Shown here: piece by piece, positions 43,237-44,681 of the stretch
Layout of the letters: each line of letters begins with the position of its first letter
Numbering within the stretch: the first letter of the stretch is position 1
Origin: a phage
Direction: 5' to 3' (one strand)
Sequence record: PZ445524.1
DNA length: 64,000 nucleotides
Translations under genes and position numbers: made by a program
The notes under the pieces: model-generated
Database searches by the model: none
Seen by the model: the letters and a program-made list of their open reading frames with translations, nothing else
What the model was told of the DNA's origin: nothing

Positions 43237-43313
43237 TGGTCGAGGCAGAAGGATTCTAACCTTCAACCTACGGATTAGAAATCCGTTGCTCTATACAATT
43301 GAGCTATGCCCCG
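43237..43313 (-). tRNA. tRNA-Arg (anticodon UCU), CCA encoded
   Basis: Cloverleaf built by hand: acceptor CGGGGCA/TGCCTCG, anticodon loop TTTCTAA, T-loop GTTAGAATCC. Confidence 0.85.
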
Positions 43314-43316
43314 TAA

Positions 43317-43982
43317 TTAAAATTTCATTTTTCGACCTTTAAACCATCCTTCTGGAATTGGGTCAGTTTTCTTAATACGTTTAGAAACTTTTTCATCTAA
43401 TGAATGAATCCACATCATACCAAATTGGGAATTCTTTTCGCCCTGTTGATGTTTATTTCTGGCGTGAGATTCTTTCATTTTATTAATAGTTTCAGGAGTA
43501 TGATGCTTATTTAAAAATCTGCTATTATTTAAAAATTTTTCCCTGTATTCAGGAGTTGACCACAAGCGTTTAAATACATTTGAACCATGTTTACGATATT
43601 TTTCTTGAAGTAAAATATCATTTTTAAAACGTGACTTAAACGATTTAGCTCCTTTTAAGCTAGCATCTTTCTTCTGGTTTAGCATCCCAGGAATATTTAC
43701 ATGATCCCATCCACCTTCACCACCAAGTTTTAAATTATACACATCTGGTCTATTTAAAAACTCTTCTGTGACAATATTTTTCTCGGCTTCAAGCATAGAT
43801 TCTTTATCATCAAAATACTCTAATATTTCTTTAGAAAAATTTTCTATACCATATTTATCTTGGGCTCTTTTTAATAATTTACCAGAACCCATATATCCAT
43901 CATCTAAATTTTCGGTAGAATGCGCACCAATATAAATTTTATTATTAATTTTATTTGTTATTTTATAAGTGTAATGGAACAT
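43317..43982 (-). CDS. segB: GIY-YIG homing endonuclease SegB
   Basis: 221 aa; GIY-YIG motif (YTYKITNKINNKIYIGAHST); sits between tRNA subclusters as in T4. Confidence 0.85.
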   Translation of the reverse strand: MFHYTYKITNKINNKIYIGAHSTENLDDGYMGSGKLLKRAQDKYGIENFSKEILEYFDDKESMLEAEKNIVTEEFLNRPDVYNLKLGGEGGWDHVNIPGMLNQKKDASLKGAKSFKSRFKNDILLQEKYRKHGSNVFKRLWSTPEYREKFLNNSRFLNKHHTPETINKMKESHARNKHQQGEKNSQFGMMWIHSLDEKVSKRIKKTDPIPEGWFKGRKMKF

Positions 43983-44023
43983 AAATATCTCCTATTTCTA
44001 AGAGTATTTATGTTCCCAAAATA

Positions 44024-44095
44024 TGGCCCTGGGTGGAATTGAACCACCATCTGGCGATTATGAGTCGCTTGCTTGAACCTTCCAGCTACAGGGCC
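44024..44095 (-). tRNA. tRNA-Ile (anticodon CAU), CCA not encoded
   Basis: Acceptor GGCCCTG/CAGGGCC; anticodon loop CTCATAA; T-loop GGTTCAATTCC. Confidence 0.8.
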
Positions 44096-44096
44096 T

Positions 44097-44172
44097 TGGT
44101 GCTGATTGACGGAATCGAACCGCCGACCTTCTCATTACAAGTGAGTTGCTCTACCTACTGAGCTAAATCAGC
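44097..44172 (-). tRNA. tRNA-Thr (anticodon UGU), CCA encoded
   Basis: Acceptor GCTGATT/AATCAGC; anticodon loop CTTGTAA; T-loop GGTTCGATTCC. Confidence 0.85.
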
Positions 44173-44174
44173 AA

Positions 44175-44261
44175 CGGAGGCGATAGGATTTGAACCTATG
44201 AGTCGCCGGAGCGACTGCCGGTTTTCAAGACCGGTGCATTAAACCACTCTGCCACGCCTCC
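44175..44261 (-). tRNA. tRNA-Ser (anticodon UGA), long variable arm, CCA not encoded
   Basis: Acceptor GGAGGCG/CGCCTCC with G discriminator; anticodon loop CTTGAAA; long extra arm. Confidence 0.85.
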
Positions 44262-44263
44262 AG

Positions 44264-44337
44264 TCTCCGCGGCAGGATTTGAACCTGCGACATTCTGCTC
44301 CCAAAGCAGACGCTCTACCAAACTGAGCTACACGGAG
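44264..44337 (-). tRNA. tRNA-Pro (anticodon UGG), CCA not encoded
   Basis: Anticodon stem TCTGC/GCAGA with loop TTTGGGA; T-loop GGTTCAAATCC. Confidence 0.85.
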
Positions 44338-44347
44338 TAAATTAAAT

Positions 44348-44421
44348 TGGAGCGGATAATGAGAATCGAACTCACATCATCAGATTGGAAGTCTGAGGTA
44401 ATACCATTATACGATATCCGC
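44348..44421 (-). tRNA. tRNA-Gly (anticodon UCC), CCA encoded
   Basis: Acceptor GCGGATA/TATCCGC; anticodon loop CTTCCAA. Confidence 0.85.
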
Positions 44422-44426
44422 AAATT

Positions 44427-44513
44427 TGGTGCGAGAAGTGGGACTCGAACCCACAAGGAAATCATTCCGCAGCATTTTAAGTGCTGTGCCTTTACCAATT
44501 TGACCATTCTCGC
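44427..44513 (-). tRNA. tRNA-Leu (anticodon UAA), long variable arm, CCA encoded
   Basis: Acceptor GCGAGAA/TTCTCGC; anticodon loop CTTAAAA; long extra arm. Confidence 0.85.
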
Positions 44514-44514
44514 G

Positions 44515-44587
44515 CTGGGAATAAAGGACTCGAACCTTTGCATCCTGGAATCAAAATCCAGTGCCTTACCAACTTGGCTAATTCCCA
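44515..44587 (-). tRNA. tRNA-Gln (anticodon UUG), CCA not encoded
   Basis: Acceptor TGGGAAT/ATTCCCA; anticodon loop TTTTGAT; only 1 nt separates it from tRNA-Leu. Confidence 0.85.
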
Positions 44588-44656
44588 ATTATTAACAAAG
44601 GCTCTCTAACAAGAACCCTTGATGATAGAGGGTATTAATCAGTGCGGTATGAGTTA

Positions 44657-44681
44657 ATAATAACAAATAATTCTTAAAGCA
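44657..44681 (-). promoter_or_regulatory. Candidate MotA-dependent middle promoter for the tRNA operon
   Basis: Minus strand aTGCTTTAa (MotA-box-like), 12 nt, TATTAT, about 70 nt upstream of tRNA-Gln. Confidence 0.4.

What the first reader, a model, noticed from the sequence alone, without database searches (positions are those of the whole stretch)
43237..44681. tRNA operon organisation: eight tRNAs, half without encoded CCA, and SegB inside the cluster
Hand-folded cloverleaves give, in transcription order, Gln, Leu, Gly, Pro, Ser, Thr, Ile, then SegB, then Arg and a stable-RNA region, ending at a strong terminator. Gln-Leu and Leu-Gly are separated by only 1-5 nt, implying polycistronic precursors. 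Four tRNAs (Gln, Pro, Ser, Ile) lack an encoded CCA and must be matured by a CCA-adding activity. A MotA-box-like element sits upstream.
Basis: partly seen in the sequence, partly recalled or inferred. Interest (0 to 1): 0.35.

Follow-up and report, generated by a model that had tools for sequence, protein, structure and literature searches.

The report
T4-type phage tRNA operon with segB
This is the well-known tRNA gene cluster of a T4-like phage: eight tRNAs, the SegB homing-endonuclease gene and two small stable RNAs in one transcription unit.

Summary
ARAGORN and Rfam both find eight minus-strand tRNAs, in the order Gln(UUG), Leu(UAA), Gly(UCC), Pro(UGG), Ser(UGA), Thr(UGU), CAU-tRNA, segB, Arg(UCU). 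The rnaD and rnaC homologues and a terminator identical to T4's follow, but they lie outside the coordinates given.

Gln, Pro, Ser and the CAU tRNA lack an encoded CCA. The Gln-Leu spacer is 1 nt and the Leu-Gly spacer is 5 nt.

The upstream "MotA-box-like element" sits in 107 nt that are 100% identical to the annotated T4 middle promoter PM2.

ARAGORN calls the CAU tRNA "Met", but it is an Ile2 (lysidine) type. It is 78-81% identical to E. coli tRNA-Ile(CAU), against 65% for elongator Met and 61% for initiator Met, and it carries the EcTilS determinants C4:G69 and C5:G68.

SegB is 97% identical to the characterised T4 enzyme.

The window is a Tequatrovirus with the RB32/RB33/SfPhi01-type cluster, so the feature is already known.

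One side result is modestly new. The missing CCA of tRNA-Ile coincides exactly with the left junction of the segB cassette. That same junction occurs on three different tRNA-Ile alleles. Extra CCA losses were seen only in clusters that carry segB in this slot.

The parts
44675..44683 (-). MotA box (TATGCTTTA) of the middle promoter, homologue of T4 PM2. It overlaps the end of the trna.2 homologue ORF (stop codon at 44687-44685).
   Evidence: Window 44694-44588 is 100% identical to X03016 3150-3256, which carries the annotated PM2 -35 and -10 regions. The pattern TGCTTYA-N11-13-TANNNT occurs 17 times in the window against 2.4 expected.
44657..44662 (-). -10 hexamer TATTAT of the middle promoter, 12 bp downstream of the MotA box
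44515..44587 (-). tRNA-Gln (UUG). No encoded CCA: G73 is followed by a single C and then G1 of tRNA-Leu.
   Evidence: The anticodon stem differs from T4 by compensatory changes and is identical to RB3.
44427..44513 (-). tRNA-Leu (UAA), CCA encoded
   Evidence: 100% identical to T4
44348..44421 (-). tRNA-Gly (UCC), CCA encoded
   Evidence: 100% identical to T4
44264..44337 (-). tRNA-Pro (UGG), C1:G72. No encoded CCA: A73 is followed by CU and then G1 of tRNA-Ser.
   Evidence: 84% identical to T4 and 97% to SfPhi01
44175..44261 (-). tRNA-Ser (UGA), long variable arm. No encoded CCA: G73 is followed by UU and then G1 of tRNA-Thr.
   Evidence: The body is 100% identical to T4, but the Ser-Thr spacer is 2 nt against 7 nt (UAAUUUU) in T4.
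44097..44172 (-). tRNA-Thr (UGU), CCA encoded
44024..44095 (-). tRNA-Ile2 type (anticodon CAU, expected to be lysidine-modified). No encoded CCA: A73 is joined directly to the segB leader.
   Evidence: ARAGORN calls it 'Met'. The best E. coli matches in 5423 of 5426 genomes are annotated tRNA-Ile. Identity is 78-81% to Ec tRNA-Ile(CAU), 65% to elongator Met and 61% to fMet. It has C4:G69 and C5:G68 and an Ile2 anticodon arm (PMC11947777). It matches the T2 and RB3 CAU tRNA at all 72 positions, apart from their encoded CCA.
43976..44016 (-). Hairpin that sequesters the segB Shine-Dalgarno (AGGAG) and AUG
   Evidence: -21.4 kcal/mol, z = -7.4. It is the homologue of the T4 71912-71952 hairpin discussed in PMC2330249. 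The outermost pair is A-U in T4 and G-C here, a change on both sides.
43317..43982 (-). segB, a free-standing GIY-YIG homing endonuclease gene (221 aa)
   Evidence: Pfam GIY-YIG 28.3 bits against a cut-off of 22.6; phrog_314 homing endonuclease, 1e-50; 97% identical to T4 SegB and 93% to T6 SegB, with Y17 and G19 present (PMC13096335)
43237..43313 (-). tRNA-Arg (UCU), CCA encoded. It starts 3 nt after the segB stop codon. This allele has T-loop UUAGAAU (A56) and D-loop AAUUGUAUA (U19).
   Evidence: 57% identical to T4 tRNA-Arg, 97% to RB33 and SfPhi01, 79% to T2
43116..43235 (-). rnaD (species 2 RNA) homologue
   Evidence: Placed by alignment to the T4 RefSeq and X03016 annotations. Fold energy -35.9 kcal/mol, z = -3.0.
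42971..43109 (-). rnaC (species 1 RNA) homologue: a tRNA-like cloverleaf with an acceptor-like stem, two long arms and a T arm (GGUUCAAGUCC)
   Evidence: Placed by alignment to the T4 annotation. Fold energy -52.8 kcal/mol, z = -5.1. Across 5 genera, 18 of 45 pairs have changes on both sides against 6.6 +/- 1.7 in shuffles.
42892..42920 (-). Intrinsic terminator of the operon (10-bp G+C-rich stem, then UUUUU)
   Evidence: The stem-loop is identical to the annotated T4 terminator X03016 4929-4952. Fold energy -24.9 kcal/mol.

Best explanation
The region is the tRNA operon of a Tequatrovirus (T4-like phage), in the allelic form found in RB32, RB33 and SfPhi01.

Transcription. It starts at a MotA/AsiA-dependent middle promoter identical to T4 PM2, with read-through from upstream early promoters as in T4. 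It runs about 1.75 kb on the minus strand to an intrinsic terminator at 42920-42897.

Processing. The primary transcript carries seven tightly packed tRNAs, the segB mRNA, tRNA-Arg, rnaD and rnaC. Host RNase P, and probably RNase E, cut it into dimeric and monomeric precursors. Leu, Gly, Thr and Arg emerge with their encoded CCA. Gln, Pro, Ser and Ile must have their 1-3 nt trailers trimmed (RNase BN/Z or exonucleases) and their CCA built by the host CCA-adding enzyme.

The CAU tRNA. It is an Ile2-type tRNA. Host TilS should convert C34 to lysidine so that it reads AUA.

Decoding role. All eight tRNAs read A-ending codons, which this 35% G+C genome uses heavily.

segB. It encodes a GIY-YIG homing endonuclease that recognises the T-arm motif GGTTCRANTCC plus the 3' end of tRNA genes. 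It drives its own inheritance, and that of the flanking tRNA genes, into segB-less relatives. Its translation is held down by a hairpin over its ribosome-binding site.

What is shown and what is inferred. Shown here: the anatomy, the sequence identity to experimentally characterised T4 elements, and the tRNA identity features. Inferred from T4 literature: the transcription, processing, modification and homing steps.
For: - tRNA calls and boundaries.
- The window's tRNA region matches 953 phage records, mostly Escherichia and Shigella T4-like phages. The best matches are SfPhi01 at 98.2% and RB32/RB33 at 96.9%.
- Gene order is the same as the annotated T4 and RB33 records, including rnaC and rnaD.
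- The promoter stretch and the terminator are 100% identical to T4. The MotA pattern is enriched 17 against 2.4.
- SegB. Biochemistry and homing are described in PMC2330249 and PMC13096335.
- The SegB core motif has 7 exact matches in the window, all in this operon.
- Ile2 identity.
- Leader hairpin.
- Codon use: AUA 11.2 and AGA 10.3 per 1000 codons, and all eight anticodons read NNA.
- T4 dimeric precursors and the CCA-less Pro-Ser precursor: PMC11143913.
- E. coli encodes CCA in all its own tRNA genes: PMC2777011.
Against: Nothing in the sequence contradicts this. No expression, processing, modification or cleavage data exist for this particular phage. The tRNA-Ile and tRNA-Arg alleles are only 64% and 57% identical to the experimentally studied T4 tRNAs, so their function rests on conserved identity elements and cloverleaf scores. 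motA and asiA were not looked for in the window.
Confidence: 0.95

Rival explanations
1. The CAU tRNA (44095-44024) is an elongator tRNA-Met, as ARAGORN and many GenBank records of related phages label it, so the operon lacks an AUA decoder.
For: ARAGORN names it tRNA-Met. RB33, T2, T2L and RB3 records annotate the same sequence as tRNA-Met. It is only 63.5% identical to the T4 tRNA-Ile.
Against: Anticodon-only naming cannot separate Met from Ile2.
- The tRNA is 78-81% identical to E. coli tRNA-Ile(CAU), against 65% for elongator Met and 61% for initiator Met.
- It shares C4:G69 and C5:G68, the EcTilS identity pairs, and the Ile2 anticodon arm, whereas E. coli tRNA-Met has U4:A69 and A5:U68.
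- Nolan et al. 2006 reached the same conclusion for the CAU tRNAs of T4-like phages (PMC1524935).
- The RB51 record annotates this slot as tRNA-Ile.
- The other seven tRNAs all read A-ending codons.
Confidence: 0.05
2. The four CCA-less genes are decaying or non-functional copies, and only the four CCA-encoding tRNAs matter.
For: All E. coli tRNA genes encode CCA (PMC2777011), so CCA-less genes look defective by host standards.
Against: Their Rfam scores are as high as those of the CCA-encoding genes (60-70 bits). Differences from T4 in the Gln and Pro stems are compensatory. The same four are CCA-less in T4, where the CCA-less Pro-Ser precursor is reported to be processed by RNase P (PMC11143913). 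Gln and Pro are CCA-less wherever they were called among the 16 clusters examined.
Confidence: 0.02
3. Which tRNAs lack an encoded CCA is partly a consequence of segB. The CCA of tRNA-Ile was removed by the left junction of the segB cassette. CCA(R), which is part of SegB's preferred cleavage site, has been eroded at further tRNA genes (Ser; Gly and Thr in some relatives) under self-cleavage pressure. The host CCA-adding enzyme makes these losses tolerable.
For: - SegB recognises GGTTCRANTCC plus a 3' CCAR and cuts right after CCAR. The T4 tRNA-Ser site, which lacks CCAG, is cut at a shifted position (PMC2330249).
- In phage GenBank records, the T2-type and T4-type CAU alleles each occur in two forms. 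One is CCA-less and fused at A73 to the segB leader (73 and 20 records). The other is CCA+ and followed by tRNA-Tyr (382 and 25 records).
- A third allele, in Mosigvirus p000v, has the same junction.
- RB3 is the exact empty site.
- Among 16 clusters, Ser, Ile, Gly and Thr are CCA-less only where segB sits in the Ile|segB|Arg slot. segB-less clusters lack CCA only at Gln and Pro.
Against: - T6-type clusters carry an active SegB but keep CCA on all tRNAs except Gln.
- The extra losses amount to only about three or four independent events in related lineages, so shared descent may explain the association.
- Gln and Pro are CCA-less regardless of segB.
- T4 tRNA-Ser is still cut by SegB in vitro without CCAG.
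- The conserved junction could instead reflect a processing or regulatory role of the UAUUUUG linker plus hairpin.
Confidence: 0.3

Closest known systems
Phage T4 tRNA region (GenBank X03016 and NC_000866 70.9-72.6 kb: subclusters I and II, segB, species 1 and 2 RNAs)
   Same: [quoted passage not shown] The same four tRNAs lack CCA. The PM2 promoter stretch and the terminator are 100% identical. Leu, Gly and Ser are 100% identical, and SegB is 97% identical.
   Different: tRNA-Ile (64%) and tRNA-Arg (57%) are different alleles. The Gln and Pro stems carry compensatory changes. The Ser-Thr spacer is 2 nt instead of 7, so the UAA trailer of the classic Pro-Ser precursor is absent. The sequence downstream of the terminator is unrelated.
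RB32, RB33 and Shigella phage SfPhi01 tRNA clusters
   Same: Nearest relatives, at 96.9-98.2% over 2 kb. They have identical CAU tRNA and tRNA-Thr, the same Arg allele (97%) and the same segB junctions.
   Different: There are a few point differences. The Gln anticodon stem here is the RB3 type. SfPhi01 keeps the 7-nt Ser-Thr spacer. SfPhi01's record annotates no tRNAs and places 'hypothetical proteins' over rnaC and rnaD.
segB-less clusters of T2/T2L and RB3 (Brok-Volchanskaya et al. 2008, PMC2330249)
   Same: Gln (identical in RB3), Leu, Gly, Ser body, Thr and the CAU tRNA body are identical or nearly so, and rnaD and rnaC are conserved. These clusters are the 'empty site' for segB.
   Different: They carry tRNA-Tyr and tRNA-Asn where the window has segB. 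Ser and the CAU tRNA encode CCA there. tRNA-Asn holds the preferred SegB cleavage site.
Phage T6 segB/tRNA-Tyr locus (Chihara et al. 2026, PMC13096335)
   Same: SegB is 93% identical and lies inside a tRNA array, just upstream of tRNA-Arg.
   Different: T6 segB follows tRNA-Tyr and has a different leader and N-terminus. T6 lacks Pro and Ser, and its CAU tRNA encodes CCA.

Membership tests
T4-type tRNA operon (Tequatrovirus) | Eight tRNA genes Gln-Leu-Gly-Pro-Ser-Thr-Ile ... Arg with U34 or CAU anticodons, in this order on one strand | tested here: met
T4-type tRNA operon (Tequatrovirus) | Middle promoter PM2 upstream of tRNA-Gln and an intrinsic terminator after species 1 RNA | tested here: met
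   107 nt and 24 nt respectively are 100% identical to the annotated T4 elements
T4-type tRNA operon (Tequatrovirus) | Species 2 (rnaD) and species 1 (rnaC) RNA genes directly after tRNA-Arg | tested here: met
   Alignment to T4; rnaC is 97% identical to T4
T4-type tRNA operon (Tequatrovirus) | One roughly 1.75-kb primary transcript processed through dimeric precursors by RNase P | not testable with these tools
   Known for T4 only (PMC2330249; PMC11143913). The spacers of 1-10 nt here are compatible with it.
SegB (GIY-YIG free-standing homing endonuclease) | N-terminal GIY-YIG catalytic domain with the catalytic Tyr and Gly | tested here: met
   PF01541 28.3 bits, above the 22.6 cut-off. Y17 and G19 are present, and Y17A/G19A is catalytically dead in T6 SegB.
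SegB (GIY-YIG free-standing homing endonuclease) | Orthology to the characterised T4 SegB | tested here: met
   214 of 221 residues identical
SegB (GIY-YIG free-standing homing endonuclease) | Presence/absence polymorphism with an otherwise homologous empty site in relatives | tested here: met
   RB3 and T2 have Tyr-Asn in place of segB between the same CAU tRNA and a related tRNA-Arg
SegB (GIY-YIG free-standing homing endonuclease) | Site-specific cleavage at tRNA-gene 3' ends, and homing in mixed infection | not testable with these tools
   Shown for T4 and T6 SegB. The recognition core GGTTCRANTCC is present 7 times in the window, only in this operon.
tRNA-Ile2 (CAU anticodon, lysidine-modified) | EcTilS identity pairs C4:G69 and C5:G68, which differ from tRNA-Met | tested here: met
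   the determinants are stated in PMC11947777
tRNA-Ile2 (CAU anticodon, lysidine-modified) | Closer to the host tRNA-Ile(CAU) than to elongator or initiator tRNA-Met; no initiator features (C1xA72, three G:C pairs in the anticodon stem) | tested here: met
   78-81% against 65% and 61%; G1:C72; anticodon stem AGCGA/UCGCC as in an E. coli prophage Ile2
tRNA-Ile2 (CAU anticodon, lysidine-modified) | Lysidine at C34 and charging with isoleucine | not testable with these tools
   Needs tRNA mass spectrometry or sequencing from infected cells
MotA-dependent T4 middle promoter | MotA box (a/t)(a/t)(a/t)TGCTT(t/c)A centred near -30, 11-13 bp upstream of a TAnnnT -10, with no -35 | tested here: met
   TATGCTTTA, then 12 bp, then TATTAT. 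The consensus is from my own knowledge of T4 middle promoters.
MotA-dependent T4 middle promoter | motA and asiA encoded by the same genome; MotA-dependent initiation | not tested
   By synteny with T4 they should lie outside this 64-kb window. The 17 against 2.4 enrichment of the motif is indirect support.

The most novel reading that the evidence does not exclude
The set of tRNAs that depend on the host CCA-adding enzyme is shaped by the resident homing endonuclease. The segB cassette is joined to tRNA-Ile exactly after the discriminator base. This junction removes the CCA and is found on three unrelated tRNA-Ile alleles in two genera. Further encoded CCA(R) motifs, which form part of SegB's preferred cut site, have been lost only in clusters that carry segB in this slot. 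This would be self-immunity by erosion of tRNA 3' ends, paid for by host Cca.
Probability: 0.3. Interest if true: 0.4.

Novelty: already known. Interest (0 to 1): 0.12.

Why it matters
As stated, the finding re-describes one of the oldest characterised phage loci. The T4 tRNA cluster was sequenced around 1980-85, SegB was characterised in 2008, and its role in escape from anti-phage defence was reported in 2026. Its value is as a correct annotation. It places the window in Tequatrovirus, fixes the CAU tRNA as Ile2 rather than Met, and marks rnaC and rnaD, which several related GenBank records annotate as 'hypothetical proteins' or a 95-nt 'tRNA-Met'.

The side observations could seed a small study of how a homing endonuclease that targets tRNA genes reshapes the 3' ends of the genes around it. 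They could also bear on the still unknown function of rnaC. These observations are the junction-linked CCA loss, the U19-A56 tRNA-Arg allele next to segB, and a covariation-supported tRNA-like fold for rnaC across five genera.

Tried and rejected
- Exact-pattern scans of IMG/VR for the two CAU-tRNA 3' ends gave only 5 and 2 loci, too few for population statistics. I used junction-spanning BLAST queries against GenBank phages instead.
- The PDB sequence search with SegB found nothing.
- A permissive Rfam scan found no family for rnaC or rnaD and only sub-threshold noise apart from the tRNAs.
- Miller et al. 2003 (T4 genome review) and Dutta & Deutscher 2009 (RNase BN) are not held. The role of RNase BN and Cca in T4 tRNA maturation therefore rests on my own knowledge plus the statements in PMC11143913 and PMC2777011.
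- A naive 'ends with CCA' test mislabelled the window's CAU tRNA as CCA+, because its acceptor stem plus discriminator reads ...GGGCC-A. This was corrected by locating the acceptor stem explicitly.
- I considered a general rule 'segB-positive clusters lose CCA' and rejected it as stated, because T6 and OES_C-3 (segB in another slot) keep CCA on all tRNAs but Gln.
- I considered the CAU tRNA as Met or initiator Met and rejected both.
- The sigma-70 consensus scan shows no excess of promoter-like sites (12 against 13.5 expected), so it was not used as evidence for promoters.
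Full report
**1. Observation**

ARAGORN and Rfam RF00005 at gathering threshold agree on eight minus-strand tRNA genes between 44587 and 43237. The scores are 59-73 bits against a gathering score of 29. The anticodons are UUG (Gln), UAA (Leu), UCC (Gly), UGG (Pro), UGA (Ser), UGU (Thr), CAU and UCU (Arg), in that transcription order.

Reading the bases after each discriminator gives the following:
- Gln: G73-C, then G1 of Leu.
- Pro: A73-CU, then G1 of Ser.
- Ser: G73-UU, then G1 of Thr.
- CAU tRNA: A73-UAUUUUG...
- Leu, Gly, Thr and Arg are each followed by CCA.

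The spacers, counted after the discriminator or the CCA, are Gln-Leu 1, Leu-Gly 5, Gly-Pro 10, Pro-Ser 2, Ser-Thr 2 and Thr-Ile 1 nt. Seven tRNAs therefore occupy 564 nt.

A 221-codon ORF (43982-43317) lies between the CAU tRNA and tRNA-Arg.

The rnaD and rnaC homologues and a strong terminator (42920-42897) lie downstream.

**2. What it is**

The 2-kb region matches 953 phage records, almost all T4-like coliphages and Shigella phages. The best matches are SfPhi01 at 98.2% and RB32/RB33 at 96.9%.

The annotated T4 RefSeq record has the same order: tRNA-Gln ... tRNA-Ile, segB, tRNA-Arg, rnaD, rnaC. So do RB33 and the original Broida & Abelson record X03016.

An alignment with T4 shows a mosaic:
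- The promoter/leader, Leu, Gly, the Ser body, segB (97% at protein level), most of rnaD and rnaC, and the terminator are (nearly) identical.
- The Gln anticodon stem and several Pro stems differ by compensatory substitutions.
- tRNA-Ile and tRNA-Arg are different alleles (64% and 57% identical).
- The Ser-Thr spacer is 5 nt shorter, which removes the UAA trailer of the classic T4 Pro-Ser precursor.
- Sequence downstream of the terminator is unrelated to T4.

**3. Promoter and terminator**

Window 44694-44588 is 100% identical to X03016 3150-3256. That stretch carries the annotated '-35' (TATGCTT) and '-10' (TATTAT) of the middle promoter PM2. In window coordinates these are 44683-44677 and 44662-44657.

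The core TGCTTTA lies 12 bp upstream of the -10. This is the MotA-box geometry, as I know it from the T4 middle-promoter consensus. That pattern occurs 17 times in the window against 2.4 expected.

Brok-Volchanskaya et al. state that this middle promoter drives a roughly 1.75-kb transcript through the whole cluster, ending after species I RNA.

The terminator stem-loop is identical to the T4 one and folds at -24.9 kcal/mol.

**4. The CAU tRNA is Ile2, not Met**

This is the only point where software and reader disagree.
- A BLAST search against 5,426 complete E. coli genomes finds the best match in 5,423 of them. Every listed hit is annotated tRNA-Ile.
- Aligned with the K-12 and prophage copies, the window tRNA shares the acceptor stem GGCCC../..GGGCC and the whole anticodon arm.
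- I verified the E. coli elongator and initiator tRNA-Met sequences against the same genomes and compared them. Identity is 78-81% to Ile(CAU), 65% to elongator Met and 61% to fMet.
- Pairs 4:69 and 5:68 are C:G and C:G, as in Ile2. They are U:A and A:U in tRNA-Met and G:C and G:C in fMet.
- These two pairs are the major EcTilS identity elements (PMC11947777).
- Nolan et al. 2006 already noted that the CAU tRNAs of T4-like phages are mis-called Met and carry Ile identity elements.
- All eight anticodons read A-ending codons. AUA and AGA are used at 11.2 and 10.3 per 1000 codons in 47 window ORFs.

**5. segB**

The ORF matches Pfam GIY-YIG above threshold and a PHROG homing-endonuclease family at 1e-50. 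It is 97% identical to T4 SegB and 93% identical to T6 SegB. It keeps Y17 and G19, whose mutation kills T6 SegB.

T4 SegB recognises a 27-bp site made of the T-arm motif GGTTCRANTCC, a degenerate middle, and often CCAR, with the cut right after it. It homes into segB-less T2L. T6 SegB also drives amplification of tRNA loci to escape the Septu defence.

The core motif has seven exact matches in the 64-kb window. All are in this operon: Gln, Leu, Pro, Ser, Thr, Ile and rnaC. tRNA-Arg has one mismatch.

The 41-nt hairpin over the segB Shine-Dalgarno and AUG, proposed for T4, is present here (44016-43976, -21.4 kcal/mol, z = -7.4). Its outermost pair changes from A-U in T4 to G-C here, on both sides, although the 3' change alters codon 3 (Tyr to His).

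**6. Mechanism**

The following steps are inferred from T4, not measured here:
- MotA/AsiA-dependent initiation at PM2, plus early read-through.
- A polycistronic transcript.
- RNase P cuts at each tRNA 5' end, with possible RNase E cuts in A/U-rich linkers.
- Trimming of the 1-3 nt trailers of Gln, Pro, Ser and Ile, followed by CCA synthesis by the host enzyme.
- Lysidine formation by host TilS.
- Low-level SegB translation from the structured leader.

Published support:
- T4 has eight tRNA genes, six of which are made as dimeric precursors.
- The CCA-less Pro-Ser precursor is cut efficiently by RNase P only after CCA is present.
- E. coli's own tRNA genes all encode CCA.

**7. Beyond the finding: CCA loss and the segB junction**

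The window's CAU tRNA matches the T2 and RB3 'tRNA-Met' at all 72 positions. Those genes continue with CCA-AATTAAT-tRNA-Tyr, whereas the window continues, directly after A73, with the segB leader.

The T4 allele behaves the same way. T6 has it with CCA followed by tRNA-Tyr, and T4 has it without CCA, fused to the same leader.

Junction-spanning queries count the following numbers of phage records:

| CAU allele | CCA-less, fused to segB leader | CCA+, followed by tRNA-Tyr |
|---|---|---|
| T2-type | 73 | 382 |
| T4-type | 20 | 25 |

A third, quite different CAU allele in Mosigvirus p000v is fused at the same base to the same leader.

RB3 is the exact empty site. Its tRNA-Tyr and tRNA-Asn (the preferred SegB target) occupy the place of segB.

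The pattern of CCA loss in 16 clusters is:

| Cluster type | Phages | CCA-less tRNAs |
|---|---|---|
| segB-less | T2, RB3, two IMG/VR contigs | Gln and Pro only (2/9, 2/10, 2/11); one IMG/VR locus holds six tRNAs from Ser to Arg, all CCA+ (0/6) |
| segB in the Ile\|segB\|Arg slot | T4, window, RB33, SfPhi01 | Gln, Pro, Ser, Ile (4/8) |
| segB in the Ile\|segB\|Arg slot | IME537, G8, G28 | the above plus Gly and Thr (6/8) |
| segB in the Ile\|segB\|Arg slot | pSe_SNUABM_01 | Gly, Pro, Ser, Ile (4/6 tRNAs called) |
| segB in another slot | T6, OES_C-3, RB51 | Gln only |

This fits a picture in which the segB junction, and perhaps SegB self-cleavage pressure, removes encoded CCA(R). However, the independent events are few and T6 is a counter-example. 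I rate the idea at about 0.3.

**8. Other things seen**

- rnaC is conserved in 791 phage records and in five genera. An 8-sequence alignment supports a tRNA-like cloverleaf: a 7-bp acceptor-like stem, a long arm, a 10-bp arm with a conserved CGUCAA loop, and a T arm. Of the aligned cells, 95% are paired. Eighteen of 45 pairs have changes on both sides, against 6.6 +/- 1.7 in shuffles and 1-6 in slid controls.
- The function of rnaC is still unknown (PMC3014915; PMC9697503), and Rfam has no family for it.
- The window's tRNA-Arg allele has A56 in the T loop and U19 in the D loop, in place of the usual C56 and G19 found in the T2/RB3 allele. This also breaks the GTTC of the SegB core.

**9. Verdict**

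The feature is the already known T4-type tRNA operon in its RB32/SfPhi01-like allelic form. Interest as a discovery is low. The side observations are modest leads.

Noticed in passing
window 44024/44023 (A73 of the CAU tRNA | segB leader); L022 610-800; L025 1488-1600: The missing CCA of tRNA-Ile coincides with the left junction of the segB cassette. Three different CAU-tRNA alleles (T4-type, T2/window-type, Mosigvirus p000v-type) are fused after A73 to the same leader, UAUUUUGRGAACAU. The same alleles encode CCA when tRNA-Tyr follows instead. The record counts are 73, 382, 20 and 25 for the four junction types.
   Followed up: yes
window 42971-43109 (-): rnaC (species 1 RNA) folds as a tRNA-like cloverleaf, with strong covariation across Tequatrovirus, Mosigvirus, Winklervirus, Karamvirus and Tegunavirus (18 of 45 pairs with changes on both sides). 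It contains an exact SegB core motif. Rfam has no family for it, and the Enterobacter phage PG7 record annotates part of it as a 95-nt 'tRNA-Met'. Its function is still unknown.
   Followed up: partly
window 43237-43313 (-): This tRNA-Arg(UCU) allele has T-loop UUAGAAU (A56) and D-loop AAUUGUAUA (U19) instead of C56 and G19. That is an apparent covariation of the tertiary 19-56 pair relative to the T2/RB3 allele. It starts with C1:G72. The change also destroys the GTTC of the SegB recognition core in the gene next to segB.
   Followed up: partly
window 43976-44016 (-): The hairpin sequestering the segB ribosome-binding site has a compensatory change relative to T4 (outermost A-U becomes G-C). 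The 3' partner changes SegB codon 3 from Tyr to His. Phage G8 has the A...C combination.
   Followed up: partly
window 44173-44174 (-): The Ser-Thr spacer is only UU, against UAAUUUU in T4 and SfPhi01. The UAA 3' trailer of the classic T4 Pro-Ser precursor is therefore absent, and Pro-Ser-Thr-Ile are packed with 2, 2 and 1 nt between them.
   Followed up: partly
L028, L008, L024 (IME537, G8, G28): Relatives with segB in the same slot have lost encoded CCA from tRNA-Gly (CCA to CA) and tRNA-Thr (CCAA to UAUCAA) as well, giving 6 of 8 CCA-less genes.
   Followed up: partly
L007 3711-4112; L026 1787-2395: Other free-standing endonuclease-like ORFs sit in the same cluster in relatives. T2 has an ORF that looks HNH-like by eye (not run against any domain library) inserted into tRNA-Thr. 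RB51 has a truncated segB-like gene between tRNA-Gly and tRNA-Ser, in the slot where tRNA-Pro lies in other clusters. The tRNA cluster is a hot spot for homing endonuclease genes.
   Followed up: no
window 42255-42890: Immediately downstream of the terminator, homology to T4 ends. A 187-aa ORF (42255-42818, minus strand) belongs to phrog_2280, of unknown function.
   Followed up: no
window, whole (for example 8322-8345, 19271-19296, 48094-48117): The MotA-type middle-promoter pattern TGCTTYA-N11-13-TANNNT occurs 17 times against 2.4 expected, mostly on the minus strand.
   Followed up: no
window 43116-43123 (-): The 3' end of rnaD reads ...GCGCACCG here, but ...GCGCACCA (a tRNA-like ACCA end) in T4 and RB3.
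   Followed up: no
L003 (SfPhi01, LC465543) 1477-1772: The closest GenBank relative annotates no tRNAs in this region and places two 'hypothetical protein' CDSs over rnaC and rnaD. This looks like an annotation artefact.
   Followed up: no
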